The position numbers were made by a program, and so were the translations under genes. From positions 34,935 through 98,934 of the forward strand of contig CAZRWW010000010.1 of the NCBI GenBank assembly GCA_964603725.1: a stretch of 64,000 bases of DNA. Direction: 5' to 3'. Positions 23,611 through 39,811 of this stretch are shown here, one piece after another (within the stretch, counting starts at the first letter, position 1; every line of letters starts with the position of its first letter). The notes under the pieces were generated by a model. It worked only from the letters and a program-made list of their open reading frames with translations. It was not told where the DNA came from and did not search any database. This DNA is from an uncultured bacterium (GTDB taxonomy: Bacteria; Eisenbacteria; RBG-16-71-46; CAIMUX01; WJJG01).

Positions 23611-23836
23611 GGAGCTCGCCGGCCGCCTCGGAGCCCGCCGGCTGCTCGTGGGCTGGCCGGCCGCCCGTTCCCACCGGCCCCTTCGCTCCCGCCGCGGCGC
23701 GAGACGGATCCGAGACGCTCGTGATGCGCCGTTCCGTCAGACTCCCCGCGATGAGCGATATCGGCGTCATCCAGTGACGGCGGCGGCTTGCCGCCGGCCG
23801 ATCGGAGCGCCGCCGGTCAAGGGCTGGCTGCCCGCG

Positions 23837-25693
23837 ATGGAAAGGATGAGAACCATGAGATCGACAATCGCGCTGTGCCTGTCCGCCTGTCTCGGCCTGC
23901 TCTACGCCGTGCCCGTGTCGGGGGAGATGGCTCAACAGACCGATTGGTCGAGGGGTCCCGGCGCCCCCGGCCCGGTGACACAGTGGAACGATCAGTTCGC
24001 CGCCGCGTCCGCGATCGACTGGGCGGATCCGGCGGGATCCCTGACGCTGCTCTCCGCGCTGCCGCATCCGCATGCGGTCACCACCACGTACGGAGAACCG
24101 GCCTGCGTCGACGCGGCCGACCTGGACGGCGACCAAGACATCGATCTTGTGTGCGCGGCCTACCAGGGGCACGAGGTGGCCTGGTGGGAGAACGACGGCA
24201 CGGGCGGCGGCTGGACCCAGCATTCGATCGCCACGGGATTCACCGAGGCCGCCAGTGTGCACGCGGCCGACATCGACCGCGACGGCGACGTGGACGTGGC
24301 GGCCACGTCGGAGGGCGGTCACACGGTCGCCTGGTGGGAGAACGACGGCACGGGCGGCGGGTGGCTCCCCCACGTGGTCGACGCCAATGTCAGCGGGCCC
24401 TTCTGCGTCTGTTCGGCCGACTTCGACGGCGACCAGGACGTGGACCTTTGCGGGGCGGTCTTCTACGCCAGCGACATCGTCTGGTGGGAGAACCTGGATG
24501 GCGTCGGCCACGCCTGGACCAAGCACACGGTCGATCCCAGTTTCTCGTACGCCTGGTGGACGGTCGCCGCCGACATCGACGACGACGGCGACTGCGACAT
24601 CGTGGGCGCGGCCTACAGCGCGGGCGACGTCTGCTGGTGGGAGAACAGCGGCGACGGCTCGGCCTGGACCAAGCGCTTCATCTGCGCGACGTTTCCCCAG
24701 GCGCTCAACGTGCGGGCCGCGGACCTGGACGGCGACGGCGATCTGGACGTCCTGGGCGCCGCCTATGCCGGCAACGTCGCTTGGTGGGAGAACGAGACCC
24801 CGACCGGCGCCTGGCTGGAGCACCCCATCGACAGCGGTCTGGCGAGTCCCTTCAGCTCGCGCGTCATGGACCTCGACGCGGACGGCGACCAGGACGTGAT
24901 CACCAACGAGCGCGACGGCAACCGGGTGCTGTGGTACGAGAACGTCGATGCCGCCGGCACGGTGTGGCTCAAGCGCGTGGTGGATGAGACGTCCGACGGG
25001 CCCAACGACGTGCTGGCGGCCGACGTCAACGGCGACCTCGTTGCGGAGATCATCGCCACCTTCTCCTGGGATGGAAGCATCATGTGGTACGAGCCGGCCG
25101 ACGAGTACGCCTCCGCCGGCACGCTCGAGTCCTCGATCCTCGACGCCGGAGGCCCCGTGCCCGACTGGGGCCCGATCACCTGGAACTGCACAGCGCCCCT
25201 CGGCGCGTCCGTGGGTGTACAAGTGCGGGCGGGGGCTGATCCGGCCGATCTGGGCGCATGGGTCGAGGTGGTCTCCTCGGGGGACGATCTCTCCGACTAC
25301 ATCGCCGGCGACACCCGCTACTTCCAGTACCGCGTCTCCCTGGCCACAGCCGACGCGGCGCTCAGCCCCACGTTCCAGGACATAGGCATCCAGTGGGAGT
25401 ACCTCAGCGGAGTGGGCGAGAGCGATGGCCCTCGAGGGGCGCGGCCGTGGTGCTCCGCGGCGAGCAACCCGGCGCGGCCCGGCGCGGCGGCGATCCGGTT
25501 CGCGGTGCCCCAGGCGGGCGAGGTCGAGGTGGCGCTCTACGACATCGGCGGCCGGAGGATTGCCACGCTCGCCAAGGGTCTCTACCCGGCGGGCACGCAC
25601 CTGGCGCCGGTGGAGGGCTTGAGCAGCGGGATGTACCTCTACGCTCTGCGCGCGGGAGAGCTGCGGGACGTGGGCAAGATCGTGCTGCCGTAA
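23837..25693 (+). CDS. FG-GAP/VCBS-repeat beta-propeller protein with a FlgD-Ig/T9SS-like C-terminal sorting domain; possible lipoprotein
   Basis: Seven copies of D.DGDGD.D..(GA).......WWEN.G.G..W. C-terminal tail ..EVEVALYDIGGRRIATLAKGLYPAGTH..GMYLYALRAGE. N-terminus MERMRTMRSTIALCLSAC has an L-S-A-C lipobox-like motif. GGAAAGG RBS upstream. The track ORF from 23648 is an artefact extension. Confidence 0.8.
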   Translation: MERMRTMRSTIALCLSACLGLLYAVPVSGEMAQQTDWSRGPGAPGPVTQWNDQFAAASAIDWADPAGSLTLLSALPHPHAVTTTYGEPACVDAADLDGDQDIDLVCAAYQGHEVAWWENDGTGGGWTQHSIATGFTEAASVHAADIDRDGDVDVAATSEGGHTVAWWENDGTGGGWLPHVVDANVSGPFCVCSADFDGDQDVDLCGAVFYASDIVWWENLDGVGHAWTKHTVDPSFSYAWWTVAADIDDDGDCDIVGAAYSAGDVCWWENSGDGSAWTKRFICATFPQALNVRAADLDGDGDLDVLGAAYAGNVAWWENETPTGAWLEHPIDSGLASPFSSRVMDLDADGDQDVITNERDGNRVLWYENVDAAGTVWLKRVVDETSDGPNDVLAADVNGDLVAEIIATFSWDGSIMWYEPADEYASAGTLESSILDAGGPVPDWGPITWNCTAPLGASVGVQVRAGADPADLGAWVEVVSSGDDLSDYIAGDTRYFQYRVSLATADAALSPTFQDIGIQWEYLSGVGESDGPRGARPWCSAASNPARPGAAAIRFAVPQAGEVEVALYDIGGRRIATLAKGLYPAGTHLAPVEGLSSGMYLYALRAGELRDVGKIVLP

Positions 25694-25769: not shown

Positions 25770-28700
25770 CTAGGCCTTGGCCTGCTTGTCCAGCTCCGCC
25801 CGGACGGTCTGGATCCGCGCCATCAGCGGCCCGTGGTGGGCCGCCTGCGCACCTTGCAGGGCCTGCTCCAGCGCCCGCCGGCACGCGGCGTGGTCGGCTC
25901 GCGCCAGGGCCAACCTGGCCGCCAGCAGATCGCGCCACGCCGAGGACCAGACCCGCGGCCAGCGGTCCCGGTCTGGGTCCGCCGCGCCGATCGCCGGCTC
26001 AGGGGGGGCGCCCGTCATGGCGCGCTCAAGGCACCAGCGGGCTTCCTGCGGATCATCCAGGTCCAGGGCGAGGATGCCGCTCAACACGTGCAAGTGGCGC
26101 GACCAGGACGCATGCTGGGTCTCCTCCGCGACCGCGAGCGCCGCCTCGATCAGCGGGCGCGCTTCCGCCGGCGCTCCGGTCAGCAGGTGGATCTGCGCCA
26201 GGCGCGTGCGGGCCAGCGCGATCTTCCCGCGCTGGCCCAGTCGTTGACCAAGGGCCAGCGCTTCCGCGCCGTGCCGGTGGGCGTCCGGCAACGTTCCCGT
26301 GTGCAAGGCCGTCCTCGTGATGCCTTCGAGGCAATCCAGAGCGCCGTCCGGGTCCACGCCGAGCCGGCGTCGCAGCGTCAGGCTCTCCTCGTAGCGGCGG
26401 CGGGCCCCGCGCAGATGCCCGCGTTCCTCGAGCAGCAGACCCAGGACGTACAGCCCCAGCGCGATCGACCAGCGATCGCGGCAGCGGCGTCGCAGCGTCA
26501 GGCTGCGATGCAGCACGCGCAGCGCTTCCTCCGGCCGGCTGGCGCGCAGGTGGTAGGCCAACACCTCCCACAATAGCCCCGCGCACCAGAGGTCATGGGC
26601 GCGCTCGCAGTCACGGGCGCCCTCCCGCAGCACCGACTCGGTGCGCCGGGAAGTGAGACCGAGGATCGCGGCCACTCCCTCGGCGAAGGCGCGCTCATCC
26701 GGCCGGCCGGCGACGCGCAGATCTCGCCGCCCCTGGCGGGCGAGCTGGCGGCACAGCGCTGGGTTCTCGTAGCGCAGAAACCAACCGCGCGCGGTGCGAG
26801 ACAAGGCGAGGAGTCGGATCGCCGCGCCGCTGCGAGCGCGTCTTTGCAGATGGGGCAGCGCGAGTGCCATGGCCTCGGCCCCCTCCACCGCGCGGCTGCT
26901 CATGTCGTAGAAGAGGAAGAGCGGTCTGACGGCCGGCGACATCTCGGTGAGCCAACCGCGCTCGGCCGCATGGGTCCAGGCCTGACGCAGGTTGTGGCGA
27001 TCCTGGGCCAGAGCGTGGAGCGCCCGCTTCTGGCCGGTCCCCTCGAGCGCGGCGCGCGCGGCGACGACCTTGCCCAGGTAGTGACGCGCGGCGCGGTCAC
27101 GGGCCGCGGCCTCCTCGCGCTTGCTCGCGCCGAGCTTCGCGCGACCGAACTGCCGGAGGGCCTCCAGGATCTCGAAGCGCTGGTCGCGCGTGCGCTGCAG
27201 GAACGACTGCTCGATGAGCGCGGTGAAGGTTGCCAGGGTCGTCTGGCCGATGGCCTGGGCCGCTTCGCGATCGAAGACCCCGGTGAGGATGCACAGGTGC
27301 CCGAAGGCCGCGCGCTCCTCGCGCGAGAGCATCGCCCAGGACTGCTCGAACACCGCGCGCAGACTGCGATGGCGCTCCGGGACGTCGGCCTGCGGCGCCG
27401 CCTCCACGTCGAGACTCTGCGCCAATCGGCCGGCGATCTCGGGCACGCTCAGGCTGTGCGCCCACGTGGCCGACAGCTCGAGACCCAGGGGATGTCCCCG
27501 CAGCCGGCGGCTGATCTGCGCGGCGGCCGACAGGTCCGCGGCCGAGGGCTTGAAGGAGGAACGCGCGCGGCGGATCGCCTGAAGCAGCAGGCGGACGGAG
27601 GCGCAGTCCGCGACCTCGCCCGGAGCCACCTTGCGCTCAGGCCAGGGCAGGCCCTCCACCTCCAGGACGTGCTCGCCCGCCAATCGCAGCCGCGACCGTG
27701 AGGTCGCCAGCACGACGCAGCCCCGCGTCCCCGCCAGGATCTCTCGCAGTGGCCCCAGGTCGCGCGCGACCTGTTCGAGATTGTCCAGGATGAGCAGCAT
27801 GCGCTTGCCGCGCAGGAACTCGATCAGGTCCCGGCATGACCCCGACGACGTGGAGCCCGGAGGCGCGGGTTCGCGAGCGCGCGTCCCGAGCGGGAGAGCC
27901 AGGCCTTCGGCCAGAGCGGCGGGGAGCAGATGTCCCGCGTCCACGGAGACCAGGGGGATGAAGACGACGCCGTCCGGGAACAGCCCGCTCAGCCGGCGCC
28001 CGGCCTCGAGCGCCAGGCGCGTCTTGCCGCAGCCGCCAGGGCCGGTCAGGGTGAGGAGTCGCAGGTCCGGCTCGCTGAGCAGTCCCGCGATCGCCTCCAG
28101 CTCCTGCTCGCGCCCGACGAAGGGCGTCGACGGCTCCGGGAGGATGAGCCGCGACGTCGCTGTCGCCGTCGGCGTGGCCATCGGCGGCGAGCTCGGCTGT
28201 CCGGGATCGCGCGCCAGGATCTCGTTGCGCAGCCGCACCGTCTCGCTGCAGGGCGCCACCTCGAGCTCGCGCGCGATCAGCTTCCTGAAGCGGTCGTACA
28301 GGCGCAGCGCCTCGGTGCGCCGGCCCATGCGCGCCAGAAGCGCCATGAGCGTGCGCAGGGCCCGCTCGTCGAGGGGATCGAGGTCCGCGCGCTGGCGAGC
28401 GCACGACAGCGCGCCGTCCAGGTCGCCGCGCCGCTCGCGCAGGCGGATCAAGGCGTCGAGCGCGCTTTCCTGGGCGGCTTTCAGCGCCTCCTCTTCGCGC
28501 AGTTGCCACTCCTCGAAGGGGAAGCTGCCGGCGAGCGTGAATCCGGCCAGGAAGTGTCCCTGGTAGAGAGCTGCCGCTTCGCTGAGGATCGGCTCCGCCC
28601 GGGCGCCCGGCGGAGTGTCGCCGCCGGAACCCAGGCCGGCGGACTTGAGCAACCGGCGATGCTCCCGCACGTCGACCCACAGGCCTTCGCCCGGCCGCAG

Positions 28701-28964
28701 CTCGACCATCTCGCCCTCGACCGCCAACCACGGGTCGAAACCCGACCGGCGGAGCACCCAGAGATGATTGCGCAGTTGGGCCAGAGCGTCTTCCCGGCCG
28801 CTGTCAGGCCAGAACATCGCCGCCAGCGCGTCGCGCGTGTGGGGTGTGCGGGTCGCGGCCAGGTAAGCTGCCAGGGCGAGCGCCCGGCGGCGTCGTATCG
28901 GCAGCGGGCGGCCCGAGGCTTGCACACGGGGGGGACCCAGCAGGCGGACTTCCAGGTGCGGCAC
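25770..28964 (-). CDS. SARP/AfsR-like regulator with a winged-helix DNA-binding domain, a BTAD domain, an NB-ARC/STAND P-loop NTPase and TPR repeats
   Basis: N-terminus ..HLEVRLLGPPRV...RRRALALAAYLA is an OmpR-type wHTH; a BTAD region follows. Walker A TGPGGCGKTRLA. C-terminal helical TPR-like repeats. The start is assigned to a GTG with an AAGGGAG RBS at about 28964, rather than the 29093 track start, which would overlap the upstream gene. Confidence 0.75.
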   Translation of the reverse strand: MPHLEVRLLGPPRVQASGRPLPIRRRRALALAAYLAATRTPHTRDALAAMFWPDSGREDALAQLRNHLWVLRRSGFDPWLAVEGEMVELRPGEGLWVDVREHRRLLKSAGLGSGGDTPPGARAEPILSEAAALYQGHFLAGFTLAGSFPFEEWQLREEEALKAAQESALDALIRLRERRGDLDGALSCARQRADLDPLDERALRTLMALLARMGRRTEALRLYDRFRKLIARELEVAPCSETVRLRNEILARDPGQPSSPPMATPTATATSRLILPEPSTPFVGREQELEAIAGLLSEPDLRLLTLTGPGGCGKTRLALEAGRRLSGLFPDGVVFIPLVSVDAGHLLPAALAEGLALPLGTRAREPAPPGSTSSGSCRDLIEFLRGKRMLLILDNLEQVARDLGPLREILAGTRGCVVLATSRSRLRLAGEHVLEVEGLPWPERKVAPGEVADCASVRLLLQAIRRARSSFKPSAADLSAAAQISRRLRGHPLGLELSATWAHSLSVPEIAGRLAQSLDVEAAPQADVPERHRSLRAVFEQSWAMLSREERAAFGHLCILTGVFDREAAQAIGQTTLATFTALIEQSFLQRTRDQRFEILEALRQFGRAKLGASKREEAAARDRAARHYLGKVVAARAALEGTGQKRALHALAQDRHNLRQAWTHAAERGWLTEMSPAVRPLFLFYDMSSRAVEGAEAMALALPHLQRRARSGAAIRLLALSRTARGWFLRYENPALCRQLARQGRRDLRVAGRPDERAFAEGVAAILGLTSRRTESVLREGARDCERAHDLWCAGLLWEVLAYHLRASRPEEALRVLHRSLTLRRRCRDRWSIALGLYVLGLLLEERGHLRGARRRYEESLTLRRRLGVDPDGALDCLEGITRTALHTGTLPDAHRHGAEALALGQRLGQRGKIALARTRLAQIHLLTGAPAEARPLIEAALAVAEETQHASWSRHLHVLSGILALDLDDPQEARWCLERAMTGAPPEPAIGAADPDRDRWPRVWSSAWRDLLAARLALARADHAACRRALEQALQGAQAAHHGPLMARIQTVRAELDKQAKA

Positions 28965-28986: not shown

Positions 28987-31900
28987 TCAGGCGCCTTGTC
29001 GATCGACGGCCTCACCGACGGAAGCCATGAGATCGAAGTTGCCCGCCAGCACATGGTCGAGCCGGCCGGTGCGCCAGCCGCGCGCGCTGTCACGGACGAT
29101 CGGCGCTGCGCCCAGGCGATAGCTGCGGACGATGCGCAGGTCGGATGGGCCGAGCGCCGCCAGGGCCGCCCGCGCTTGGCCGCGCAGGGCCCGGAGCCGC
29201 GCCGCCCGCGTGTTGCCCGCCGGCGGCTCGATCGGCTGCGGCACCACCGTCACGTGCGCGCGCTCGCGGTCGGTCCCCTTGCCGCCGCCGCGCGGGTATT
29301 CCGCGACGTGCAGCCCGGTCTCACCGGCGAGGAGCCCGTAGGCGCCCAGGCCGGCGACGGCGAGGAGCAGCCGATAGTCTCCGGCGCGGGGATCCTCGCT
29401 CTCATCCAGCACCGTGCAGTTCATGCCGCGCTTCTGCGCCCAGGCCTGGTACATCATTCCCAGCGTCTGGCCCCAGCTTGGCCGCTGATCGCCGCCGGTG
29501 TCACGCGCCGCGCAAGCGACGCACTCCAGGCTCAGAAACGCCTCGCGAGGTCGCCCCGCGTGCACGTCGGCGCAGGCGGCATCGATCAGGTAGAGTTTCT
29601 GCGCGATGTCGCCGATGAGCTTGCGCGGCAAGTGCTCGCGCTGCCCCGCGGCCGAGGAAACCAGCCGCGTGAGCAGGGAGCCCGCGCTCTCCAGGACGCG
29701 CTCGATCCGATCCTGGTACTCAGCGCTGCCCAAGATCTCAAAGCGATCGAGCGAAGTCCAGAAGTCGCGCTCCGCCGTCCGCGCGAGGGCAGCCTGCTTG
29801 GCCGCCCGCCAGGACTCGGCCTCCACCAGGGCGCGCAGGCGATCGTGGTGCAGCTGCAGCGCCTCGGCCTCGGTCGCGGTGCCCCGCGGATCGAGCACGA
29901 TCGCGCCCAATGGCGGTCGCTCCACCGCCCCGCCCGCGTGGCGACCCCCGGCGGCGGCCGGCGCGTGCTCCGGCGCGTCGGGATCGACAAACTCGACCTG
30001 CAATCCCCCGCCGGCGGCGCGCACGAAGAGAAACTGGTCGCCGGCGGGCGCCTGGCACTTGGCGATCACCGTCGCCAGCGGCGCCAGCAGGTGACGTTCG
30101 ATGGCCCGCCGCAGCGGGCGCGCACCCAGGTCCGGTGTGAAACCCTTCTCCAGCAAGAACTCGATGGCGTCATCGTCCCACTCGATTGCCCAATCGCGCC
30201 AGCGCAAGCCCCGCAACCGGCTGATCGCTCGCAGTTCCTTGCGCAGGATGGCGCGCATCGTCTCGCGGCTGAGCGGCCGGAAGATGATCACCTGATCGAT
30301 GCGATTGAGGAACTCCCGGCGAAACGTCTCGCCGATCGCGCGCTCGATGGCCTCCGGGCGAAACTGCTCATCCTCGCGGGTGAATCCCAGGCGGGCCGCG
30401 CCGGACATCGCCGCGCCGATGTTGGCGGTCATGATGATGATCGCGTGCCGCAGGTTGACGGTCAGGCCGCGATCGTCGGTCAAGCGACCGTCGTCGAAGA
30501 CCTGCAGGAACATGTGCCACACCTGCTCGTTGGCCTTCTCGAACTCGTCCAGCAAGACGACCGCGAAGGGCTGCTCGCGAATGCGCTCCACCAGGGAGCC
30601 CTTGGCTTCCCCGGCGGCACGCCCCCCGAACAGGCGGGTCAGGGACCCGGACGTTTGCAGCTCGCTCATGTCGATGCGGATCATCCGCTCCGGCCGGCTG
30701 AACAGGAACTCGGTGAGCACCTTGGCGATTTCGGTCTTGCCCGTGCCGGTCGGGCCGGCGAACAGGAAGACCCCCAGCGGGCGCGTCGGATCGGTGAGTC
30801 CGGCCTTGATCATCGCCACGCGATCCACCAGGCAGTCGATGGCCTCGGGCTGCCCCATGACGCGCGACTCGAAGTGCGATCGCAACCGCGCCAGATCGAG
30901 CTGCTGTCGGTCGTCCAGGACCACGGCGGGCAAGCCCGTCAGCTGACTCACGGTGGTCATGAGGTCGTCGCGGCCGATCGCGGGCACCTCCCGTCTGGGG
31001 CCGATCGCGGGCACCTCCCGTCCGGGGCCGGTCCGGCCTTCGCGTCCTGTTTCGCTGGCGAGCCTCGCGCAGGTGGTCTTGAGCAAGTCGAGCACGTGGC
31101 CGGGCGCGGCGCGATCGGCCAGGAACTGCTCGGCCAAGTGCACGGCCTCGCACACCGTGTCGGGCGAGACTGGCGCGGCGCCGGCGTTCGTGCCCGCAGC
31201 TTGCGCCCACCGGCAGGCGAGGTCGAGCGTGGTCGCGGGGTCCGGCGGCGCGAGGCGCTCGGCTTGCAGCGCGCCACGATACCGCGGCCGCGCGCGCAGA
31301 ATGCGCTCGTAGCCTTCGGGATCGGTCTCCCCGATCACCACCACCTGCCGCGCTTCGAGGTGCGGCAGAAGGAGATCCAGCGCCCCGGTATCGCTCTTGT
31401 CATGTTGCCCGGTCCAGACGAGCTCGTGGATGTTCGGCGCGTACCAGAGCTGGCGCGGCTTGGCTGCCAGCCGCTTGAGCAGCCCTTCGAAGCGTTCTTC
31501 GAACTGGCCGATGTACTTCTGGCCGGCGATGAGGTCCATGTGCTGAGCTTCGATGATCGTCCAGCCCTTCGGCAGCAATCGCCGGCTCAGCAGGCGCATG
31601 ACGGTGGTCTTGCCTGTCCCCGCTTCGCCCACGAGCACGAAAGACGGCGGGGCGTCCCGTTCCAGGGCGGCCTCGATACGGTCGACCGTCTCCATGAGGG
31701 CCGGGTGCTCCACGATCGCGTCGATCCGCGGATCGACCTCCGCGCGCCACGGTTGGCCGACTCCGCCGCTCGCGGGCTGGTCGGGCGGCCTCTCCGGCAC
31801 GGCCAGCTCGGATTCCCGCCTGAGGCGTTCGATGTGGGTGAGCACTTCCTCGCGGAGGGCTCCGATGAGCTGGTCATCCAACTGGAACAAGAGTCGGCGC

Positions 31901-32658
31901 AGGGGTTGAAGCTGCATCTCGTCGAGCGTGTTCAACAGAGGCGCCAGAGTGGGCTTCTCGCCGGCACCGAGGCGCTCGCGGATGAAGTCCTCGACGAAGA
32001 CTTGTGCCGGCGACAGCCACAGCTCGGGGACGCGCGCCAGGACGGTGCCGACGACCTGGTCGCCAGCGGCGGTGTGCCGCGCGATCGCCCGCAGGGCGAA
32101 GTAGGCGATCCAACTGCTGTGGCGATCGAGAGCGCTGAGCAGCGAACGGGTGGGGACCGATCCCGGGTCCCGGCGCGACAACGCTTCCAGCGCCACGAGG
32201 ATCGCCAGGGGGTTGTCGGAGATGAGGAAGCTCAGCAACCCCTCGGTAGTGTCATGCTCGGCCGTCATGCGGGCGACCGCGCGCTCGAAGAGGGCATTCG
32301 TCAGTAGATCGCTCGGACGCAGCGAGACGTTCCAGAGGGGAATGAGCTCCGCCAGGAGCGCGTCGAGGGGCTGCTCGGCTTCGCCGGGCGGGCCGGGCGT
32401 GACGTCGCCGGGCGGGCCGGGCGTGACGTCGCCGGTGCCGGGGGCGGGCGGCGCGGCTCCGGTGGCCGCGCCGGAGGTGGGCGGCGAGCCCGGGGGGCCG
32501 GCGGCAGAGGGCCGGTCATCGGCGAGACGGGTATAGGGCGATAGCGCGCGGCGCGGACGCGCCGTCAGTCGCACGACGACCCCCGCGATGAGCCCGGCAG
32601 CGACCAACAGAAGTAGAGCCGCACCTATGCTGTCCACACCCCCTCCGGGCGACAACAC
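28987..32658 (-). CDS. Membrane-anchored ClpA/ClpB-family double-AAA+ ATPase fused to a C-terminal class-I peptide-chain-release-factor-like module with GGQ altered to GGK
   Basis: N-terminal TM helix, then a Pro/Gly-rich linker with the repeat GDVTPGPP x2. D1 Walker A VLVGEAGTGKTT. D2 is ClpB-D2-like with FLFAGPTGTGKTE, VVLLDEFEKA and a sensor region. The last ~350 aa align to RF1/RF2 domain 1 (ERDFWTS versus DPDFWND), the PCRF domain, a GGQ-region equivalent RGGGKGTDRERAHVTVVP (versus [21 protein letters not shown]), and domain 4 RIVRSYRLGAAPIVRDSARGWRTGRLDHVLAGNFD (versus [33 protein letters not shown]). Confidence 0.75.
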   Translation of the reverse strand: MLSPGGGVDSIGAALLLLVAAGLIAGVVVRLTARPRRALSPYTRLADDRPSAAGPPGSPPTSGAATGAAPPAPGTGDVTPGPPGDVTPGPPGEAEQPLDALLAELIPLWNVSLRPSDLLTNALFERAVARMTAEHDTTEGLLSFLISDNPLAILVALEALSRRDPGSVPTRSLLSALDRHSSWIAYFALRAIARHTAAGDQVVGTVLARVPELWLSPAQVFVEDFIRERLGAGEKPTLAPLLNTLDEMQLQPLRRLLFQLDDQLIGALREEVLTHIERLRRESELAVPERPPDQPASGGVGQPWRAEVDPRIDAIVEHPALMETVDRIEAALERDAPPSFVLVGEAGTGKTTVMRLLSRRLLPKGWTIIEAQHMDLIAGQKYIGQFEERFEGLLKRLAAKPRQLWYAPNIHELVWTGQHDKSDTGALDLLLPHLEARQVVVIGETDPEGYERILRARPRYRGALQAERLAPPDPATTLDLACRWAQAAGTNAGAAPVSPDTVCEAVHLAEQFLADRAAPGHVLDLLKTTCARLASETGREGRTGPGREVPAIGPRREVPAIGRDDLMTTVSQLTGLPAVVLDDRQQLDLARLRSHFESRVMGQPEAIDCLVDRVAMIKAGLTDPTRPLGVFLFAGPTGTGKTEIAKVLTEFLFSRPERMIRIDMSELQTSGSLTRLFGGRAAGEAKGSLVERIREQPFAVVLLDEFEKANEQVWHMFLQVFDDGRLTDDRGLTVNLRHAIIIMTANIGAAMSGAARLGFTREDEQFRPEAIERAIGETFRREFLNRIDQVIIFRPLSRETMRAILRKELRAISRLRGLRWRDWAIEWDDDAIEFLLEKGFTPDLGARPLRRAIERHLLAPLATVIAKCQAPAGDQFLFVRAAGGGLQVEFVDPDAPEHAPAAAGGRHAGGAVERPPLGAIVLDPRGTATEAEALQLHHDRLRALVEAESWRAAKQAALARTAERDFWTSLDRFEILGSAEYQDRIERVLESAGSLLTRLVSSAAGQREHLPRKLIGDIAQKLYLIDAACADVHAGRPREAFLSLECVACAARDTGGDQRPSWGQTLGMMYQAWAQKRGMNCTVLDESEDPRAGDYRLLLAVAGLGAYGLLAGETGLHVAEYPRGGGKGTDRERAHVTVVPQPIEPPAGNTRAARLRALRGQARAALAALGPSDLRIVRSYRLGAAPIVRDSARGWRTGRLDHVLAGNFDLMASVGEAVDRQGA

Positions 32659-33165
32659 GTGCCCTCGATCGGCATCGCAGTCCGCTCAGAGGGGAGCATA
32701 CGCCAAAGCTACCCGAGCCGTCATGGAGTTGTCGGACCTGCAAGCCCATGATCGAATGCAGTTCTGCCGCTAGCAGGGTGCTTCGGGGCCAAGTTCGAGT
32801 GTCTGGATCGCTTCTTTCCAATCTGAGAGTGGCCAGACCGTGCTGCGTAACGACAGACATGCGTTGGCCTTGCAGCCAGATCCGCCCCTTCTCGCGAAGG
32901 AACGAAGATACGTGGTCGCCGCCTCCGTCAGCGACGAGATTGTGCGGAACACATGGTTGGTCGGATCTCGTGTGCCCAACGGCATCTCGCGCTGACTCCC
33001 GCACCGGGGGCGCCCATTGCCATCGGCCCGCGGACTGCGCGCGCGCACCATGGGTCGTGAGGGAAACGCTCACTCAGATTCCTGGCCGACCTGCGGCTCG
33101 AAAGTCAGGCTGATCACACCCTTGCCGGCCGAGTGAACCATCGCGCTATCCGCTTCACGTGATCC

Positions 33166-34173
33166 TCAGCGGATGATCGTCCACCCCCCCCGCCCATCGC
33201 GGCAGAAGATGAAGCTGATGTAGTTGGCCTCTTCCTCGGCCTGGTCGGCGAAGTAGACGACCGACCTGTTGGTGACGGAGTCGATCGGCTGGTAGAGACG
33301 GCCACCGCCAAAGGGCCTGAACTCGAGGTCGGAGGTGTCGAGATCGGCCAGGTGCCACTCGTCGTCTTCCCACAGATACTTGAACTGCCCCAGGGTCTCC
33401 TGCTCAAAGGCCTGCGGGGTCATGTAGTGCGCCCGCTGCAGATCCGCGTTCCGTGCTGCTAGCGACCGCTTCAGGGCATCCATGTCTTCGCTCTGCAGGA
33501 CATTCCAGAATCTCTTGACCTCTCCGGTCAACGCCACGCGATCGGCGTCGGTGATGGGCTCAGGTGGCAGAGCCATCCAGGACCAGGGTGGGAGAGGCAT
33601 GCTGGCGGGGAAGCTCTGCCTCCCGAGCAGCGTGTGCTCGCCCTCGACTTCGAAGCTAAGTGCGCCACCTGGCGTGGGTACTTCAGGCCCGCCGGAGGAG
33701 GGGGACGGAGAACCTGGCGGCGGGGGGGATCCCGGCGGCGGCGTCTTGACTTGCATGCGCAGGAGGCTCGTCTTTGTGTCCGGCGGCAGGGCGTGCTCGC
33801 GGACAAACACCTCCAGCCGGACTTCTCCCGGGGTGGGGCCGTCCCCGAGCGTCAGGCGGACGGAGATCTCGTTCAGTCCATCGGCAAGCCAGCGATTGAT
33901 CGGCATCTCGGTCGAGACGGTGCCGCGGCCAATGTCGTCGGCCAGAACCGGTCCGTCATTGACCCGAATGTCCCACGGGCGGCCGCCCGCCGTGATACTC
34001 AGCGTGTAATACGGTTCTCGCAGATCCATGGGCATCCTTTCCAAGGTCGCCTGGCTTGCCAGGCCTGCTGCTGCCGCAAGTATGAGCACAGCGGCGGCTC
34101 GGACACTACCCCTTCTGCAGAACAGGCTGCTTACGGAATGGGAACTTCTTCCCTTCCACGATCTTGACCTCAT
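33166..34173 (-). CDS. Hypothetical secreted protein with signal peptide and a Pro-rich linker
   Basis: Hydrophobic AAAVLILAAAAGLASQA with an AxA cleavage site. Low-complexity PPPGSPPPPGSPSPSSGGP segment. No recognisable domain. Start is uncertain, between 34104 and 34197. Confidence 0.45.
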   Translation of the reverse strand: MRSRSWKGRSSHSVSSLFCRRGSVRAAAVLILAAAAGLASQATLERMPMDLREPYYTLSITAGGRPWDIRVNDGPVLADDIGRGTVSTEMPINRWLADGLNEISVRLTLGDGPTPGEVRLEVFVREHALPPDTKTSLLRMQVKTPPPGSPPPPGSPSPSSGGPEVPTPGGALSFEVEGEHTLLGRQSFPASMPLPPWSWMALPPEPITDADRVALTGEVKRFWNVLQSEDMDALKRSLAARNADLQRAHYMTPQAFEQETLGQFKYLWEDDEWHLADLDTSDLEFRPFGGGRLYQPIDSVTNRSVVYFADQAEEEANYISFIFCRDGRGGWTIIR

Positions 34174-35965
34174 TCCCGTACTCTTCTCCGCCCTCAAGAG
34201 CTCCAGTTCGTTCGGTCTTCCCCTTGCCCTTCTTCCGCAGTCCCTCGTGTTGGATCTCCGCTCCTACGTGGTAGTAAGCGCGCCAGCCGAGCACAATGCC
34301 CGACCAGGCGAACTCGCCGTCGATATAGAGCCCCTTCTCTTCGAACGCGCCGGTCAACTCGCCGCTCAGCACCGTCTTTGCATATCCCTCAATGCCCGCG
34401 CAGAAGTTGATGATGACAATGTGGAGCTCGACAGAAACCTCGGGCTTGATCATCAGCTCGAGTTCTCCGCCAATCTTCCCCTCGACCGGTTCGCGCTTCA
34501 TGTCGACACCCGTCACCGAAAGCGTTCCCTCGATTGTGGCTTCGGCAGAAAGCCAGATGGCCATGACCCCCTTGGCGCCGATCACCTCGTTGCCGATTCC
34601 CTTGGCGATGCGCCGCTTGACCTTGGCAATAAAGGTTCCGAGGGCAGGCACAATGTGGCAGAGAATGTCCAGGATGTCGACGCGCCCCATGATGCCGATC
34701 AGCGGTGAGAAGCCGACTGTCACATCATACTTGTACTCAACAAGGGGGCCATCGTCCTGTTCTTCGTACCCCCAGCTCCCCTTCAGCACGAACGTGGGCC
34801 AGGTGAACTCCAGCTCGACGCCGCCGATGTAGTCAATGCAATCGGCGACGTATTCCACCATGCCCTTGGTGTCATTCAAGAGCTGGAGCGCGGTGTTGAT
34901 TTCTTGCTCGTAGCTTGCCTTAAGGCTTTTCTTGTGTTGGTCGCTCTCGACGGAGATCTCCCCTTCGACAGTGAAACTGGAATCCACCTTGGTCTTGCGC
35001 CGCTGGCCCGCCTTGCGCTCCGCCTGAGTCGAATACCCCGCGCTGATGCCGGCCTCCCAATGCAGGTCGGGGAAGACCTCGATCGTGACCTCGGCCGGCT
35101 TGGTGGTCTGGCAGGCGGAGAGCTTGACGCGAGATTCCTTAGGCTTAGCCTTATAAGGCCAGATGATCTTGCGGATGTTCTGCTCAAGAGCGTAGTCCTT
35201 GTGGCATGGGAGATGGAAGGACCCACCCGCATCGGGCAGCGCGGGTTCGAGACCGGGCACGGAGATGAGACGGTTGGCGTGCCTTTCGCACGGTCCGGCC
35301 CCGATCTTGGTCGTGACCTTGATCTCGCCGCCCTTCTTCGCGCCACCGACGACTTGGAACCGGGGCTTCTCCCCGGCAGGGATTTTCCCCGGCACCTCGA
35401 GCTTGTACTCGCGTTCGGGGTCCGCTCCGGAGAGGGTGAAGCCGTCGACGCGGCAGGTGTCGGACTTCTTGCCCTCACCCTCGGTGGCGCCTGCGCCGGC
35501 GCCCGCTTCGGCCTGGTCAGCGGTCGCCGCGCCGGCGGGGGCGCCAGTCGTCGCCCCTGTGTTGGTGTCCGCGCCCTCGCCCTCGGTCGCGCCGAGCCTG
35601 CTGGGATCGGCAACCGTGGCCGTGTCCCCCGCCAGCGCGCTCGAGGAGATGCCGGTCGAGACCATGGCGGCCGTACAGGGCTGGGGGGGTGAAAACAGGA
35701 TGCGCCCGGTCTCGATCCGCGCGATCAGGGCCTCGCGCAGCTCGTACGTGTCGGTGGGAAGGTGAGTGATGTCGCCCTCGGCCAGCTGGAGGACTTCCAA
35801 GAGGCTCCGGACCAGCGACCGATTCTCGGGGGCACGCAAGTAGGGAGCCAGCGTCTCCGTAAGCTGGGTCCGCACCGGTCCCGAAAGACGCCGGTCGGGG
35901 TTGCCCGGGTCGGGGGAGAGCTGCAGCTCAATTTCCAGGTCGATCTTGCGGAGGATGGTTTTCAT
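34106..35965 (-). CDS. Hypothetical 619-aa lysine-rich protein of unknown function with atypical composition for this genome
   Basis: Complete ORF. It is K/E/I-rich and lower in GC than block 1, and sits at the edge of the T6SS island. No recognisable motifs. Confidence 0.45.
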   Translation of the reverse strand: MKTILRKIDLEIELQLSPDPGNPDRRLSGPVRTQLTETLAPYLRAPENRSLVRSLLEVLQLAEGDITHLPTDTYELREALIARIETGRILFSPPQPCTAAMVSTGISSSALAGDTATVADPSRLGATEGEGADTNTGATTGAPAGAATADQAEAGAGAGATEGEGKKSDTCRVDGFTLSGADPEREYKLEVPGKIPAGEKPRFQVVGGAKKGGEIKVTTKIGAGPCERHANRLISVPGLEPALPDAGGSFHLPCHKDYALEQNIRKIIWPYKAKPKESRVKLSACQTTKPAEVTIEVFPDLHWEAGISAGYSTQAERKAGQRRKTKVDSSFTVEGEISVESDQHKKSLKASYEQEINTALQLLNDTKGMVEYVADCIDYIGGVELEFTWPTFVLKGSWGYEEQDDGPLVEYKYDVTVGFSPLIGIMGRVDILDILCHIVPALGTFIAKVKRRIAKGIGNEVIGAKGVMAIWLSAEATIEGTLSVTGVDMKREPVEGKIGGELELMIKPEVSVELHIVIINFCAGIEGYAKTVLSGELTGAFEEKGLYIDGEFAWSGIVLGWRAYYHVGAEIQHEGLRKKGKGKTERTGALEGGEEYGNEVKIVEGKKFPFRKQPVLQKG

Positions 35966-36154
35966 GGGTGCACCTTCTCGCCTGACCGAGGGCGGGTGGA
36001 ACTGCGTCCGTCCCTTCCGATGGCTTCACGAAGGTCCGTAGACGGTCATCAACCTTGCGCTGGACCCGGCAGGGGGACCAGGCCGCAGTCTTACTAGCTA
36101 TCAGGGTAGCACCCTGTCGCGGGGGGCGGCAACGGGAGAGCGGTGCCTAGAATC

Positions 36155-37450: not shown

Positions 37451-37513
37451 AGCTTCGCCTGATTCGGAATAACCGCGCTTTGATAGATCTTCCTTGACGG
37501 GCCGCCGGAATAG

Positions 37514-37576
37514 AAAGAGACCTCCCTTGTCAACACAACCCTCCCCAGACGGGGAGAGCAATAGGGAGGTCTCTTT
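37514..37576 (+). promoter_or_regulatory. Perfect 13-bp inverted repeat that sequesters the GGGAGG Shine-Dalgarno of the IS630 transposase
   Basis: AAAGAGACCTCCC (37514..37526) pairs with GGGAGGTCTCTTT (37564..37576), which ends 1 nt before the GTG start at 37577. A nested CTCCCC/GGGGAG repeat sits in the loop. Confidence 0.5.
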
Positions 37577-38620: not shown

Positions 38621-38757
38621 TGCAGAATCAGGCGAAGCTATTCAGTCATCGGTTCATCATTGGCGCCTGCGACGAGCATGAACATGCTTGTCGATCGAGT
38701 CGCGCAGGCGGACCACGTGGGCCAACTCCAGGTACAGCGGCAGGCCGCCCAGGGCGG

Positions 38758-39318: not shown

Positions 39319-39332
39319 GGCCGGCCCTCGTC

Positions 39333-39765
39333 TCAGGTCCGGGGTCGGGGCGCGAGGCTGGCGATCATCCCGTCCACCGCGGCGCCCAGGGTCTCCATGG
39401 TCTGCTTCGAGAAGGCGGCGCTGAAGTTGCAGGTCGTGCCCTCGTGCATCACGAAGACGAGCTTCTGGAACACCACCTTGCCCTCGGCCGGCGCCCACTC
39501 GTACACGGCCCCGCAGACGGAGGCACCGTCGGGCCGCTGCCTCGTTCTGCGGCTCAGCAGCTCGGCGCCGGGATGGCTGTCCAGGGAATGCGCGATGCGC
39601 CCCTCGGCATAGTCCTCGATGTCCGTGCTGTTGGGCCGCGCGTTGACCTGGATGAAGAGGATGTGCTGGTGCCCGCCCGCCTCCGGACCCAGGATGAAGT
39701 GGACCAACTGGTCCTTTCAAGCGTCCGGGAGCGCGATCCTGAAGGTGCCGTTGAACCTGTTCATA
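39333..39765 (-). pseudogene. DUF1795/Eag-family chaperone pseudogene; TGA replaces the conserved Trp of the LPDGW motif
   Basis: Minus-strand translation MNRFNGTFRIALPDA[TGA]KDQLVHFILGPEAGG.. aligns with the intact paralog at 50014..50460 (..FKLLLPDGWEDRTVHCFVGPEDVG..). The TGA lies at about 39718..39720. The downstream body is conserved. Confidence 0.5.
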
Positions 39766-39811
39766 TTGCTGCAAACATTTCGGTTAGGAGATCTGCCCTC
39801 ACCAAGGCACT

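What the first reader, a model, noticed from the sequence alone, without database searches (positions are those of the whole stretch)
28987..32658. Membrane-anchored ClpB-like double-AAA+ unfoldase fused to a full class-I release-factor-like module with GGQ changed to GGK
Seen in sequence: one 1223-aa ORF with an N-terminal TM helix, two AAA+ modules (the second clearly ClpB/ClpA-D2-like), and a C-terminal ~350 aa that aligns along RF1/RF2 domain 1 (ERDFWTS), the PCRF domain and domain 4 (RIVRSYRLGAAPIVRDSARGWRTGRLDHVLAGNFD). The catalytic GGQ loop equivalent reads RGGGKG with a 3-residue deletion, so peptidyl-tRNA hydrolysis is likely lost while ribosome A-site binding may be retained. Established knowledge: in eukaryotes a release-factor homolog (Vms1) works with the AAA+ unfoldase Cdc48 to clear stalled nascent chains. 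A covalent bacterial RF-unfoldase fusion is, to my knowledge, undescribed. Inference: it could act in membrane-proximal ribosome quality control, or as a ribosome-targeting toxin or defence module.
Basis: partly seen in the sequence, partly recalled or inferred. Interest (0 to 1): 0.85.

Follow-up and report, generated by a model that had tools for sequence, protein, structure and literature searches.

The report
Membrane Clp-type ATPase with dead release-factor tail
This gene encodes a membrane-anchored Clp/Hsp100-type protein-remodelling ATPase whose tail is a copy of bacterial release factor 2 that has lost its whole peptide-releasing (GGQ) domain; the same fusion occurs in hundreds of uncultured bacteria and I found no description of it, so it may link an unfolding motor to ribosomes at the membrane.

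Summary
The ORF (28987-32658, minus strand, 1223 aa) is real and the fusion is not a chimera. Sixty-two independent genome loci from many phyla carry the same ~1100-1300 aa architecture. A profile of the tail finds 434 protein clusters at E<=1e-30.

Architecture:
- N-terminal TM helix and a low-complexity linker
- ARM/HEAT-like helical domain
- D1 AAA+ ring: Walker A and pore-loop Tyr kept; Walker B DE changed to P-(D/N/E); Arg fingers lost
- D2 AAA+ ring, ClpB-like and catalytically intact, but without the GYVG pore-loop aromatic
- an invariant h-G-F at the position of the ClpC ClpP-docking loop
- a C-terminal RF2-derived module

The module is not a full release factor with GGQ changed to GGK. 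Domain 3 is absent: there is no Pfam RF-1 hit, and one helix sits where about 90 residues should be. RGGGKG lies in the hairpin where RFs carry SPF/PxT. It is unique to this protein.

The codon-reading elements are not conserved either, whereas domain 4 is as conserved as the D2 motor.

My best guess (inference, about 0.4) is a membrane-tethered motor that uses a non-hydrolytic RF2-like module to engage ribosomes. I found no prior description. Interest 0.7.

The parts
28987..32658 (-). Whole gene, 1223 codons plus stop. The GTG start is preceded by GAGGG. The stop is TGA at 28989-28987.
   Evidence: full-length orthologues in 62 loci
32569..32628 (-). N-terminal transmembrane helix (residues 11-30, IGAALLLLVAAGLIAGVVVR), followed by basic residues
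   Evidence: maximum 19-residue hydropathy is 2.77; a comparable helix occurs in about 55 of 63 family members
32383..32568 (-). Pro/Gly-rich low-complexity tether (residues 31-92). Its length and sequence vary across the family.
   Evidence: information 0.73 bits per position
31759..32382 (-). Family-specific all-alpha N-domain (residues 93-300), ARM/HEAT-like and acidic (median net charge -9). It replaces Clp_N.
   Evidence: AF2 pLDDT 89.7 with 13 helices. Foldseek finds only weak armadillo-repeat matches, E>=0.013. No Pfam hit. Charge.
31024..31701 (-). D1 AAA+ module (residues 320-545). Walker A GEAGTGKT is intact and the pore loop AGQKYIGQFEER keeps its Tyr. Walker B is non-canonical and the Arg fingers are not conserved.
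31426..31446 (-). D1 Walker-B position (residues 405-411, WYAPNIH). It aligns to ClpB LFIDELH, with DE replaced by P-N; in the family this is P-(D/N/E).
30292..30783 (-). D2 AAA+ large domain (Pfam AAA_2, residues 626-789). Walker A GPTGTGKT, Walker B LLDEFEKA, the sensor-1 position (T-S/A-N; TAN in the window protein) and the Arg finger NRID are all conserved. The pore-loop GYVG is replaced by a shorter polar/acidic loop with no aromatic residue.
30382..30390 (-). L-G-F (residues 757-759); the G-F is nearly invariant (82 and 83 of 84). It aligns with B. subtilis ClpC V671-G672-F673, which by established knowledge is the ClpP-docking tripeptide.
30034..30273 (-). ClpB_D2-small domain (residues 796-875) with sensor-2 GARPL
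29872..30003 (-). Linker (residues 886-929) after the conserved FVDPDAP motif. It joins D2-small to the RF-like module.
   Evidence: pLDDT <60 for its first ~20 residues
29584..29871 (-). RF2-like domain 1 (residues 930-1025), a helical bundle carrying the RF2-type DFW motif
29266..29571 (-). RF domain-2-like part of the beta-sheet superdomain (residues 1030-1131). The Pfam PCRF hit covers 1054-1117.
29275..29292 (-). RGGGKG (residues 1123-1128), the beta4-beta5 hairpin loop. Structurally this is the position of the SPF/PxT loop, not a GGQ loop. It is not conserved in the family.
   Evidence: The sequence-level ambiguity is shown.
29167..29265 (-). Short segment (residues 1132-1164) with a single helix. 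It stands in place of the ~90-residue GGQ domain 3.
29026..29166 (-). RF domain-4-like strands and C-terminal helix (residues 1165-1211, RIVRSYRLGAAPIVRDSARGWRTGRLDHVLAGNFDL). This is the most conserved part of the tail and it is basic.

Best explanation
SHOWN:
- The gene encodes a member of a widespread, unnamed family of single-pass membrane-anchored Hsp100/Clp-type double-ring AAA+ proteins.
- The domain order is: TM helix, flexible tether, acidic ARM/HEAT-like domain, D1, D2, then a C-terminal RF2-derived module.
- D1 keeps nucleotide binding and a pore-loop tyrosine but lacks a canonical Walker B and Arg fingers.
- D2 is a fully equipped ATPase but has no pore-loop aromatic. It carries an h-G-F tripeptide at the ClpC ClpP-docking position.
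- The RF2-derived module keeps domain 1 and the domain 2/4 beta-superdomain. It has lost the GGQ peptidyl-tRNA-hydrolase domain and all conserved stop-codon-reading residues.

INFERRED:
- The protein forms a hexamer tethered under the cytoplasmic membrane.
- D2 is the motor. D1 is a substrate-gripping, nucleotide-stabilised ring.
- The six RF2-like tails act as non-catalytic ribosome-targeting or ribosome-sensing modules. They would bind the factor-binding/A-site region of ribosomes that lack a decodable A-site codon. This is analogous to Dom34/Pelota, an eRF1 paralogue that lost both GGQ and codon recognition.
- In this way the motor would be brought to stalled, membrane-engaged ribosomes, to remodel them or to extract the associated nascent or membrane protein.
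- Substrates may be handed to ClpP through the h-G-F loops.
- The protein cannot release peptides itself.
For: Architecture and conservation:
- The fusion is conserved in 62 full-length loci from Acidobacteriota, Gemmatimonadota, Calditrichota, Eisenbacteria, Krumholzibacteriota, Rokubacteria, Proteobacteria, Bacteroidota and Spirochaetes.
- A profile of the tail finds 434 clusters at E<=1e-30, mostly about 1100-1290 aa with the module at the extreme C-terminus.
- The TM helix is a family feature.

RF homology:
- The module derives from RF2 rather than RF1: prfB 41 bits against prfA 17; PDB RF2 E 1e-9 against RF1 4e-5.
- Domain 3 is absent, and the SPF loop, alpha5 tip and switch loop are unconserved.

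Selection on the tail:
- Domain 4 carries 2.8 bits per position against 3.0 for D2.
- Its charge has shifted to basic: pI about 10.3 against 5.0 in E. coli RF2. Domain 1 is near neutral, against -20 in RF2.
- This is compatible with a retained RNA/ribosome interface and incompatible with a decaying relic.

Motor anatomy.

ClpP loop: h-G-F aligns with ClpC V671-G672-F673.

Established knowledge: the only known partner of RF domains 1, 2 and 4 is the ribosome, together with ArfA/BrfA bound on it.
Against: - No ribosome binding was tested.
- The elements by which RFs contact mRNA and the decoding centre (alpha5 tip, SPF/PxT loop, beta5 His-Thr, switch-loop Trp) are variable or lost. Canonical A-site docking is therefore not assured.
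- No conserved neighbours link the gene to translation, rescue or secretion.
- D2 lacks a pore-loop aromatic and D1 probably cannot hydrolyse ATP. Processive threading is therefore uncertain.
- The h-G-F loop is 4 residues shorter than in ClpC, and T. thermophilus ClpB has G-W at the same spot without binding ClpP.
- The geometry is unexplained. The tails leave the D2 (cytosolic) face while the entry pore faces the membrane.
Confidence: 0.4

Rival explanations
1. The RF2-derived tail no longer touches ribosomes. It has been exapted as a protein-protein, regulatory or oligomerisation domain. For example, it could stand in functionally for the missing M-domain or for adaptor docking, or act as an auto-inhibitory cap. 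On this reading the protein is a general membrane-protein quality-control unfoldase, FtsH-like in role, possibly feeding ClpP. Substrates would be chosen by the ARM-like N-domain facing the membrane.
For: - All codon and decoding-centre contact elements are unconserved, and domain 3 is gone.
- The M-domain and Clp_N are absent, so another regulatory or adaptor surface is needed.
- The ARM/HEAT-like N-domain is a typical peptide or protein binder.
- The membrane anchor and tether place the D1 entry face towards the membrane.
- There is no translation-related gene context.
Against: - Retention of three RF domains in their native arrangement, with strong purifying selection, including the RF2-specific DFW motif and a domain 4 that has become more basic, is more than a generic scaffold would need.
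- No precedent is known for RF domains 1, 2 and 4 binding anything other than the ribosome and the rescue factors bound on it.
Confidence: 0.35
2. It is a ribosome-targeting toxin or a defence/conflict effector. The dead RF module would plug the A site to shut down translation, or the ATPase would dismantle ribosomes, during phage attack or stress.
For: - The phyletic distribution is patchy, and there is no synteny even with the 70%-identical relative.
- Transposases and a compositional shift lie next to the gene in the window.
- Burroughs and Aravind propose conflict-driven origins for other aberrant RF paralogues (PMC6514570).
- The D2 domain resembles the ClpB-like DolB of the Dodola system.
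Against: - No conserved partner, antitoxin or sensor gene was found.
- There are no copies on viral contigs or plasmids.
- The PADLOC hits cover only the generic AAA_2 domain.
- A stable membrane anchor and large family-wide conservation look like housekeeping or stress proteostasis rather than an arms-race module.
Confidence: 0.1
3. One reading: a complete class-I RF module whose GGQ has mutated to GGK, so it would be a full tRNA-mimicking A-site and PTC binder.
For: MAFFT places RGGGKG opposite GGQ. The family HMM scores an RF2 construct deleted from SPF to GGQ about 20 bits better than one deleted for domain 3 only. Strand beta5 may therefore descend from the post-GGQ strand.
Against: - No RF-1 domain hit at E<=10.
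- By my count from the sequences, about 65 residues are missing relative to RF2.
- The AF2 model has no domain 3 and puts the loop in the domain-2 hairpin.
- GGK is absent from every relative examined.
Confidence: 0.03
4. It is an artefact: an assembly chimera, a fused pseudogene or a spurious high-GC ORF.
For: At 70% GC the genome produces many long spurious ORFs. In some related long-read assemblies the gene is split into 2-4 ORFs.
Against: - The codon-position GC signature is uniform along the whole ORF.
- Sixty-two independent full-length copies exist in different phyla and assemblies.
- There are hundreds of full-length clusters.
- Every domain is under purifying selection.
Confidence: 0.01

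Closest known systems
Bacterial release factor 2 (PrfB; Pfam PCRF + RF-1)
   Same: - The tail has the RF2-type domain 1 with its DFW motif.
- It has the domain 2/4 beta-superdomain topology (beta1-beta8 and the C-terminal helix).
- It has the conserved domain-4 motif, hRxY...hhRD...TG...VLxGxhD.
- Best sequence and structure hits are RF2/RF1.
   Different: - There is no domain 3 or GGQ, so no hydrolase.
- The SPF loop, alpha5 GGTE tip and switch-loop Trp are not conserved.
- Domain 4 is basic and domain 1 is neutral rather than acidic.
- The module is fused to the C-terminus of a 900-aa AAA+ protein.
ClpC / ClpA (ClpP-partner class-1 Hsp100 unfoldases)
   Same: - Two stacked AAA+ modules.
- The D1 pore-loop motif AGxxY.G.hE.R.
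- D2 of the AAA_2 type with a D2-small domain.
- An h-G-F tripeptide at the ClpC V671-G672-F673 position.
- JGI names fragments of the family 'ClpC'.
   Different: - No Clp_N domain; an ARM-like domain and a TM anchor take its place.
- No M-domain.
- D1 Walker B and Arg fingers are degenerate.
- D2 GYVG is lost.
- Scores fall far below the equivalog cut-offs: ClpA 311 against 993 bits.
ClpB / Hsp104 disaggregases
   Same: The best overall sequence match is D2 plus D2-small: TIGR03346 332 bits; PDB 1qvr E 9e-83.
   Different: - It lacks the M-domain, which by established knowledge is required for coupling to DnaK.
- It lacks the D2 pore tyrosine.
- It has an h-G-F loop that ClpB lacks.
- It is membrane-anchored.
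Dom34/Pelota with Hbs1 and ABCE1 (archaeo-eukaryotic no-go and non-stop rescue)
   Same: The logic is the same. A release-factor paralogue has lost both the catalytic GGQ and the codon-recognition motif. It senses an empty or blocked A site and works with an ATPase (established knowledge; summarised in PMC6514570).
   Different: - The fold is unrelated (aeRF1 fold against bacterial RF fold).
- The polypeptides are separate.
- The ATPase is of the ABC type, not AAA+.
- It is not membrane-bound.
- This is analogy only; no function has been shown here.
Vms1/ANKZF1 with Cdc48/p97
   Same: A release-factor-family protein is physically coupled to an AAA+ unfoldase for clearing stalled nascent chains (PMC6514570).
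   Different: - Vms1 is an active aeRF1-fold hydrolase or nuclease that recruits Cdc48 non-covalently through a VIM motif.
- Here the RF part is a bacterial-type RF, catalytically void and covalently fused.
PrfH and ArfB (bacterial RF paralogues used in rescue)
   Different: PrfH and ArfB retain the GGQ domain and lose other parts: PrfH lacks domain 1, and ArfB lacks domains 1, 2 and 4. This family does the opposite, keeping domains 1, 2 and 4 and losing GGQ.
FtsH (membrane-anchored AAA+ protease)
   Same: An N-terminally membrane-anchored AAA+ hexamer that could survey membrane-proximal substrates.
   Different: FtsH has one AAA+ ring fused to an M41 protease and two TM helices. It shows no homology to this protein beyond the AAA+ fold.

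Membership tests
Class-I peptide chain release factor (RF1/RF2) | N-terminal helical domain 1 | tested here: met
   phmmer aligns the tail to RF2 residues 18-107. The family HMM aligns to RF2 residues 9-201 at 65 bits. The AF2 model has a four-helix bundle. The DFW motif is conserved.
Class-I peptide chain release factor (RF1/RF2) | Domain 2/4 beta-sheet superdomain (Pfam PCRF) | tested here: met
Class-I peptide chain release factor (RF1/RF2) | Domain 3 carrying GGQ (Pfam RF-1, PF00472) | tested here: not met
   No PF00472 hit at E<=10. One helix replaces the domain. The gap is 23-34 residues in 60 of 61 members, and only 1 of 61 has any GGQ string.
Class-I peptide chain release factor (RF1/RF2) | Stop-codon recognition elements (SPF or PxT tripeptide, alpha5-tip GGTE, beta5 His-Thr) | tested here: not met
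   The hairpin loop is variable: RGGGKG here, RRPSQG in L006, TPQDEKSF as consensus. The alpha5-tip region is variable and contains indels.
Class-I peptide chain release factor (RF1/RF2) | Binds the ribosomal A site and releases the peptide | not testable with these tools
   This needs biochemistry or cryo-EM. Peptide release can be excluded from the absence of domain 3.
Hsp100/Clp class-1 double-ring AAA+ (ClpA/B/C) | Two AAA+ modules; D2 of the AAA_2 type followed by ClpB_D2-small; D2 Walker A and B, sensor-1, Arg finger and sensor-2 intact | tested here: met
   Walker A and B, N746, R786 and G845-A846-R847 are invariant or nearly invariant in 84 sequences.
Hsp100/Clp class-1 double-ring AAA+ (ClpA/B/C) | Catalytically competent D1 (Walker B hhhhDE, Arg fingers) | tested here: not met
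   ClpB LFIDELH aligns to WYAPNIH. Pro occupies the Asp position in 69 of 84 sequences. The ClpB RR fingers align to T/A.
Hsp100/Clp class-1 double-ring AAA+ (ClpA/B/C) | Aromatic pore-loop-1 residue in both rings | tested here: inconclusive
   D1 has Y/F/W in 61 of 63 sequences. In D2 the GYVG is replaced by a 3-residue-shorter loop with no aromatic in any common state.
Hsp100/Clp class-1 double-ring AAA+ (ClpA/B/C) | Clp_N N-terminal domain | tested here: not met
   No Clp_N hit. The N-domain is an ARM/HEAT-like solenoid.
ClpB/Hsp104 | Coiled-coil M-domain inserted in D1-small | tested here: not met
   The D1 alignment ends at ClpB residue ~394-400 and D2 resumes at 521. About 25 residues lie between them in the query.
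ClpP-partner unfoldases (ClpA/C/E/X) | Surface loop with an [LIV]-G-[FL] tripeptide that docks into ClpP | tested here: inconclusive
   L757-G758-F759 is present, with G in 82 and F in 83 of 84 sequences. It aligns with ClpC V671-G672-F673. The loop is 4 residues shorter than in ClpC. ClpP binding itself was not testable.
Named Clp orthologues (NCBIfam equivalogs ClpA, ClpB, ClpV, ClpG, ClpK) | Score above the curated equivalog cut-off | tested here: not met
   ClpB 332 against 1232 bits; ClpA 311 against 993; ClpV 249 against 885; ClpG 251 against 1900.
Dom34/Pelota or Vms1 (aeRF1 superfamily) | aeRF1-type (RNase-H-like) central domain | tested here: not met
   All structural matches are to bacterial-type RFs. 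The resemblance is functional analogy only.

The most novel reading that the evidence does not exclude
The family is a bacterial, single-polypeptide, membrane-tethered counterpart of the Dom34-ABCE1 and Vms1-Cdc48 systems. An RF2 paralogue stripped of hydrolase and codon reading would sense ribosomes stalled on translocating or membrane-inserting nascent chains. It would couple them directly to a Clp-type AAA+ motor, and possibly to ClpP. The motor would split or strip the ribosome, or extract and degrade the jammed nascent chain. This would be a previously unknown bacterial ribosome-rescue or ribosome-quality-control pathway, widespread in uncultured soil and sediment phyla.
Probability: 0.25. 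Interest if true: 0.9.

Novelty: new variant of a known kind. Interest (0 to 1): 0.7.

Why it matters
- All described bacterial RF paralogues (ArfB, PrfH, ICT1-like) keep the GGQ hydrolase and shed the other domains. This family does the reverse and welds the remainder to an ATP-driven remodelling machine anchored in the membrane.
- If the tail still recognises ribosomes, bacteria would have a non-hydrolytic, motor-coupled way to deal with stalled ribosomes at the membrane. Until now that logic has been known only from archaea and eukaryotes (Dom34-ABCE1, Vms1-Cdc48).
- If the tail does not recognise ribosomes, it would be a clear case of a translation factor domain being reused for something else.
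- It is also an unusual Hsp100. The pore tyrosine sits in a non-catalytic D1 ring, and the catalytic D2 ring has no pore tyrosine. That challenges the usual threading model.
- The family has hundreds of members but no name, no Pfam architecture note and no published description that I could find.

Tried and rejected
- Homologue search with the N-domain alone found nothing, because the search is word-limited.
- A second homologue search with the tail alignment added only a few fragments.
I rebuilt the alignment from proteins returned by the representative search.
- The afdb50 fold library was unavailable, so I could not look for UniProt or cultured-organism members by structure.
- An exact look-up of the window protein found no record in the collection. 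The source organism stays unknown; the closest relative is an unclassified MAG (L006/L086, 70% identity).
- Conserved gene-neighbourhood analysis over 85 loci found only within-Pyrinomonadaceae synteny: a histidine-kinase-like gene and an M48 peptidase. Nothing is shared across phyla. There is no synteny between the window and L086.
- The downstream SARP regulator is not conserved in L006.
- PADLOC gave only generic AAA_2 similarity.
- There are no copies on viral contigs or plasmids.
- Rfam found nothing in the window, and the promoter/terminator scan found nothing informative.
- Literature searches gave no description of the fusion. The most complete RF survey, PMC6514570, does not mention it. 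One literature query failed on a format error.
- I considered whether strand beta5 derives from RF2 beta5 or from the post-GGQ strand. Sequence scoring favours the post-GGQ strand by about 20 bits, whereas the structure says it occupies the beta5 position. I left this open because it does not change the functional conclusion.

Full report

The window is about 70% G+C, so long ORFs occur on both strands. The 1223-codon ORF at 28987-32658 on the minus strand has the coding signature expected for such a genome. Its GC1/GC2/GC3 values are 0.74/0.51/0.87, and GC3 stays at 0.83-0.93 in every 100-codon block. The overlapping 1103-codon plus-strand ORF has its GC maximum at position 1, so it is its mirror image.

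The start is a GTG preceded by GAGGG. The stop is TGA at 28989-28987. A SARP/BTAD-NB-ARC-TPR regulator gene starts 22 bp downstream on the same strand, behind a GGGAGA site.

**Domain calls**

Pfam gives AAA_2 at residues 626-789 (E 1.5e-41), ClpB_D2-small at 796-875, weak generic P-loop hits around residue 340, and PCRF at 1054-1117 with 35.7 bits against a gathering score of 24.

NCBIfam places the core nearest ClpB (332 bits), ClpA (311 bits, spanning 326-865), ClpG, ClpV and ClpK. All of these fall far below their equivalog cut-offs. It places the tail nearest prfB (41 bits) rather than prfA (17 bits).

Scanned alone, the last 339 residues hit only PCRF (38.3 bits). They do not hit RF-1/PF00472, the GGQ domain, even at E<=10. 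phmmer against PDB sequences aligns residues 937-1128 with RF2 residues 18-214 at E 1e-9; RF1 is weaker at 4e-5.

**The fusion is a family, not a chimera**

A first homologue search returned 12 proteins at 35-46% identity. Most were contig-end fragments that already combined ClpB_D2-small with PCRF. JGI calls them 'ClpC' and NCBI calls one a 'PCRF domain-containing protein'.

A scan of one genome per species found 299 genomes with a relative. The best 80 are all MAGs. They come from Acidobacteriota (many Pyrinomonadaceae and Blastocatellia), Gemmatimonadota, Calditrichota, Eisenbacteria, Krumholzibacteriota, Rokubacteria, delta- and alpha-proteobacteria, Bacteroidota, Spirochaetes and others.

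In 62 of these loci the match is the C-terminal end of one uninterrupted 1090-1500 aa ORF. That ORF has two Walker A motifs about 275 residues apart.

An exhaustive profile search of 1.84 billion representatives found 434 clusters at E<=1e-30. Most are 1050-1290 aa with the module at the extreme C-terminus.

The gene is absent from viral contigs and plasmids.

**N-terminal part**

A hydrophobic 19-residue segment with Kyte-Doolittle mean above 2 precedes the conserved region in about 55 of 63 members. In the window protein this is residues 11-30. It is typically followed by Arg/Lys and then by a tether that varies in length and composition. The positive-inside rule (inference) puts the bulk of the protein in the cytoplasm.

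Residues 93-300 form a conserved, acidic, all-alpha domain. Its AF2 model has pLDDT 89.7 and 13 helices. Its only structural neighbours are armadillo/HEAT-type repeats at weak significance (E>=0.013). It has no Pfam match. It replaces the Clp_N domain.

**The motor**

Alignment to ClpB and column statistics over 63 and 84 family members give the following picture.

- D1 keeps Walker A (G-x-x-G-x-GK-T/S) and the pore-loop motif AGQxYIGxLEER, with Y/F/W in 61 of 63 sequences.
- D1 Walker B is non-canonical. ClpB LFIDELH aligns to W-x-x-P-(D/N/E)-F-H, with Pro at the Mg-binding Asp position in 69 of 84 sequences.
- The two D1 arginine fingers of ClpB align to T/A.
- There is no M-domain. About 25 residues link D1-small to D2.
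- D2 has invariant Walker A and Walker B (LLDEFEKA), a conserved sensor-1 position (T-S/A-N), the Arg finger (NRxD) and sensor-2 (GARPL).
- The D2 GYVG pore loop is replaced by a loop 3 residues shorter, made of acidic and polar residues with no aromatic.
- L757-G758-F759 has G in 82 and F in 83 of 84 sequences. It aligns exactly with V671-G672-F673 of B. subtilis ClpC. I recalled that ClpC segment from memory and verified it as identical to PDB 3j3t residues 649-723.
- The loop holding h-G-F is intermediate in length between ClpB and ClpC.

By established knowledge, that tripeptide is what docks ClpA/C/E/X onto ClpP. Whether it does so here is untested.

**The release-factor-like tail: what is there and what is not**

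An AF2 model built on 13 family sequences is confident, with pLDDT 90.7 and pTM 0.88. In the numbering of that model it shows:

- a four-helix domain 1;
- then beta1, alpha5, beta2, beta3, a short helix, beta4 (221-228), a six-residue turn (229-234) and a long beta5 (235-246);
- then ONE helix (257-274);
- then beta6, beta7, beta8 and a C-terminal helix.

This is the complete topology of the RF domain 2/4 superdomain, with nothing but a helix where the roughly 90-residue domain 3 is inserted in real RFs.

By my count from the sequences, the window protein is about 65 residues shorter than E. coli RF2 between the start of beta4 and the start of beta6. Typical family members are about 71 shorter. 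I checked the RF2 sequence against PDB 1gqe. The segment between the conserved '..QP' and 'VRRYR' is 23-34 residues in 60 of 61 members.

In RFs that turn carries SPF or PxT. phmmer aligns it to RF2 'SGGRRH', just after SPF.

The string is not conserved. The 70%-identical relative has RRPSQG, and the family consensus is E-T-P-Q-D-E-K-S-F. Only 1 of 61 tails contains any GGQ string.

One nuance remains. MAFFT and a scoring test with engineered RF2 deletions (89.6 against 69.4 bits) prefer to align the family's 'F-N-R-A-x-A-x-V-R-V-V-x-Q-P' with the post-GGQ strand '[14 protein letters not shown]'. Historically, then, the deletion may have run from the SPF loop to the GGQ loop, with that strand taking over the place of beta5. 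It does not rescue the claim, because there is no GGQ, no conserved GG and no domain 3.

**Other RF features**

The alpha5 N-terminal tip (GGTE in RF2, which reads U1) falls in a variable, indel-rich stretch. The stretch before beta6, which is the switch loop with Trp319 in RF2, is also variable. All three codon and decoding-centre reading elements are therefore unconstrained.

By contrast, several elements are strongly conserved:
- the RF2-type 'DFW' motif of domain 1;
- the 'MY..WA..R.M' helix;
- 'GLHV.E.P';
- above all, domain 4, 'VRRYR..PSPLVRD..RGWRTGRLDRVL.GDFDL'.

Domain 4 carries 2.8 bits per position against 3.0 for the D2 motor and 1.4 for the N-domain. Its charge has changed. Domain 4 is basic (median pI 10.3 against 5.0 in E. 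coli RF2) and domain 1 is neutral (against net -20). The tail is under strong selection for something, and that something is not stop-codon reading or peptide release.

**Context**

No neighbour is conserved across phyla. Recurrent neighbours (a histidine-kinase-like gene and an M48 peptidase) are confined to closely related Pyrinomonadaceae. The four database contexts differ from one another. The window and its closest relative share nothing but the gene itself.

In the window the gene lies between the SARP regulator and a stretch of lower G+C. That stretch holds unannotatable ORFs and IS630-type and DDE transposase genes.

PADLOC shows only generic AAA_2 similarity, for example to DolB. Rfam finds nothing, and the promoter/terminator scan shows no sigma-70-type promoter match and only one terminator-like match, within chance expectation.

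**How it most likely works**

The following are shown: the anatomy above, the loss of hydrolase and codon reading, and purifying selection on the tail.

The following are inferred:
- It forms a hexamer, as Hsp100 proteins do.
- It hangs from the inner face of the membrane by six tethers.
- D2 drives the work, while D1 binds nucleotide and grips substrate through its tyrosines.
- The six RF2-derived tails project from the D2-small domains.

The only known ligands of RF domains 1, 2 and 4 are the ribosome (the L11/stalk region for domain 1 and the 30S A site for domains 2/4) and the rescue factors bound there (ArfA, BrfA). The most economical reading is therefore that the tail still targets ribosomes, but as a non-catalytic, codon-independent sensor. 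Dom34/Pelota, which lost the same two functions of eRF1, is the closest analogy.

Combined with the anchor, this suggests surveillance of membrane-engaged ribosomes, possibly with hand-over to ClpP. I put this at about 0.4.

The main rival, at about 0.35, is that the tail has been exapted for a non-ribosomal role such as regulation or adaptor or partner binding. In that case the protein would be a membrane-protein quality-control unfoldase. The loss of every decoding-centre contact motif and the absence of any translation-related context speak for this rival. A toxin or defence role (about 0.1) has little support.

**Comparison with what is known, and novelty**

The protein is not a member of the class-I RF family in the functional sense, because two defining features were tested and failed. 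It is not an orthologue of any named Clp protein. It is a new architecture within the Hsp100/Clp kind.

The fullest published survey of RF domain architectures describes bacterial RFs as a catalytic domain inserted into the codon-recognition domain. It catalogues paralogues that keep the catalytic domain (ArfB, PrfH, ICT1, C12orf65, MRPS35). It does not mention Clp or ClpB, and its three AAA+ mentions shown all refer to Cdc48 (PMC6514570). Three further full-text searches found nothing either. Databases hold the family only under generic names.

I rate it a new variant of a known kind, with interest 0.7. The architecture is surprising to specialists in both the ribosome-rescue and AAA+ fields, and it is directly testable. 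The ribosome link, however, is still inference.

Noticed in passing
window 25770-28964 (-): A large SARP-type regulator (BTAD + NB-ARC/AAA_16 + TPR, about 1065 aa from the GTG at 28964) starts 22 bp after the stop of the target gene on the same strand, behind a GGGAGA site. It may be co-transcribed. The adjacency is not seen in the closest relative, L006/L086.
   Followed up: partly
window 51750-54725 (+), 45147-46229 (-), 41118-45134 (-): A second, canonical Clp/Hsp100 gene (Clp_N + AAA + AAA_lid_9 + AAA_2 + D2-small, 991 aa, ClpV/ClpB-like) lies about 20 kb away. Near it are a PAAR-motif protein and a 1338-aa protein with no Pfam hit. This suggests type VI secretion components or effectors.
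   Followed up: partly
window 14272-23610 (+) and 23648-25693 (+): A giant 3112-aa ORF has only a C-terminal FlgD Ig-like domain hit. It is followed by a 681-aa FG-GAP/VCBS-repeat protein. These are probably surface or secreted proteins.
   Followed up: no
window 32000-40000; 36722-37903 (-), 37577-38620 (+): G+C drops from about 0.72 to about 0.63 just upstream of the target gene. This region holds an IS630-family transposase (DDE_3 + HTH), a DDE_Tnp_1_4-like fragment, and ORFs of 343 and 619 aa with no family match. The target gene therefore sits at the edge of a compositionally distinct, probably mobile segment.
   Followed up: partly
L001 8496-11746; L003 7748-11164; L004 7356-10792; L005 8193-11077: In several related contigs the gene is called as 2-4 consecutive ORFs. 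In L001, for example, there are ORFs of 502 aa (N-domain plus D1) and 581 aa (D2 plus RF-like tail) with a 4-nt overlap. These may be frameshift errors of long-read assemblies, pseudogenes or genuine two-gene versions.
   Followed up: no
window 28996-32307 (+): An 1103-codon antisense ORF mirrors the target gene. Its codon-position G+C is 0.88/0.49/0.74, which marks it as a non-coding shadow typical of high-GC genomes.
   Followed up: yes
P0016 (1049 aa): One database representative carries an unrelated, repeat-rich and Arg-rich N-terminal 570 aa joined directly to the middle of D2. It looks like a mis-assembly or mis-called gene. I excluded it from the alignments.
   Followed up: no
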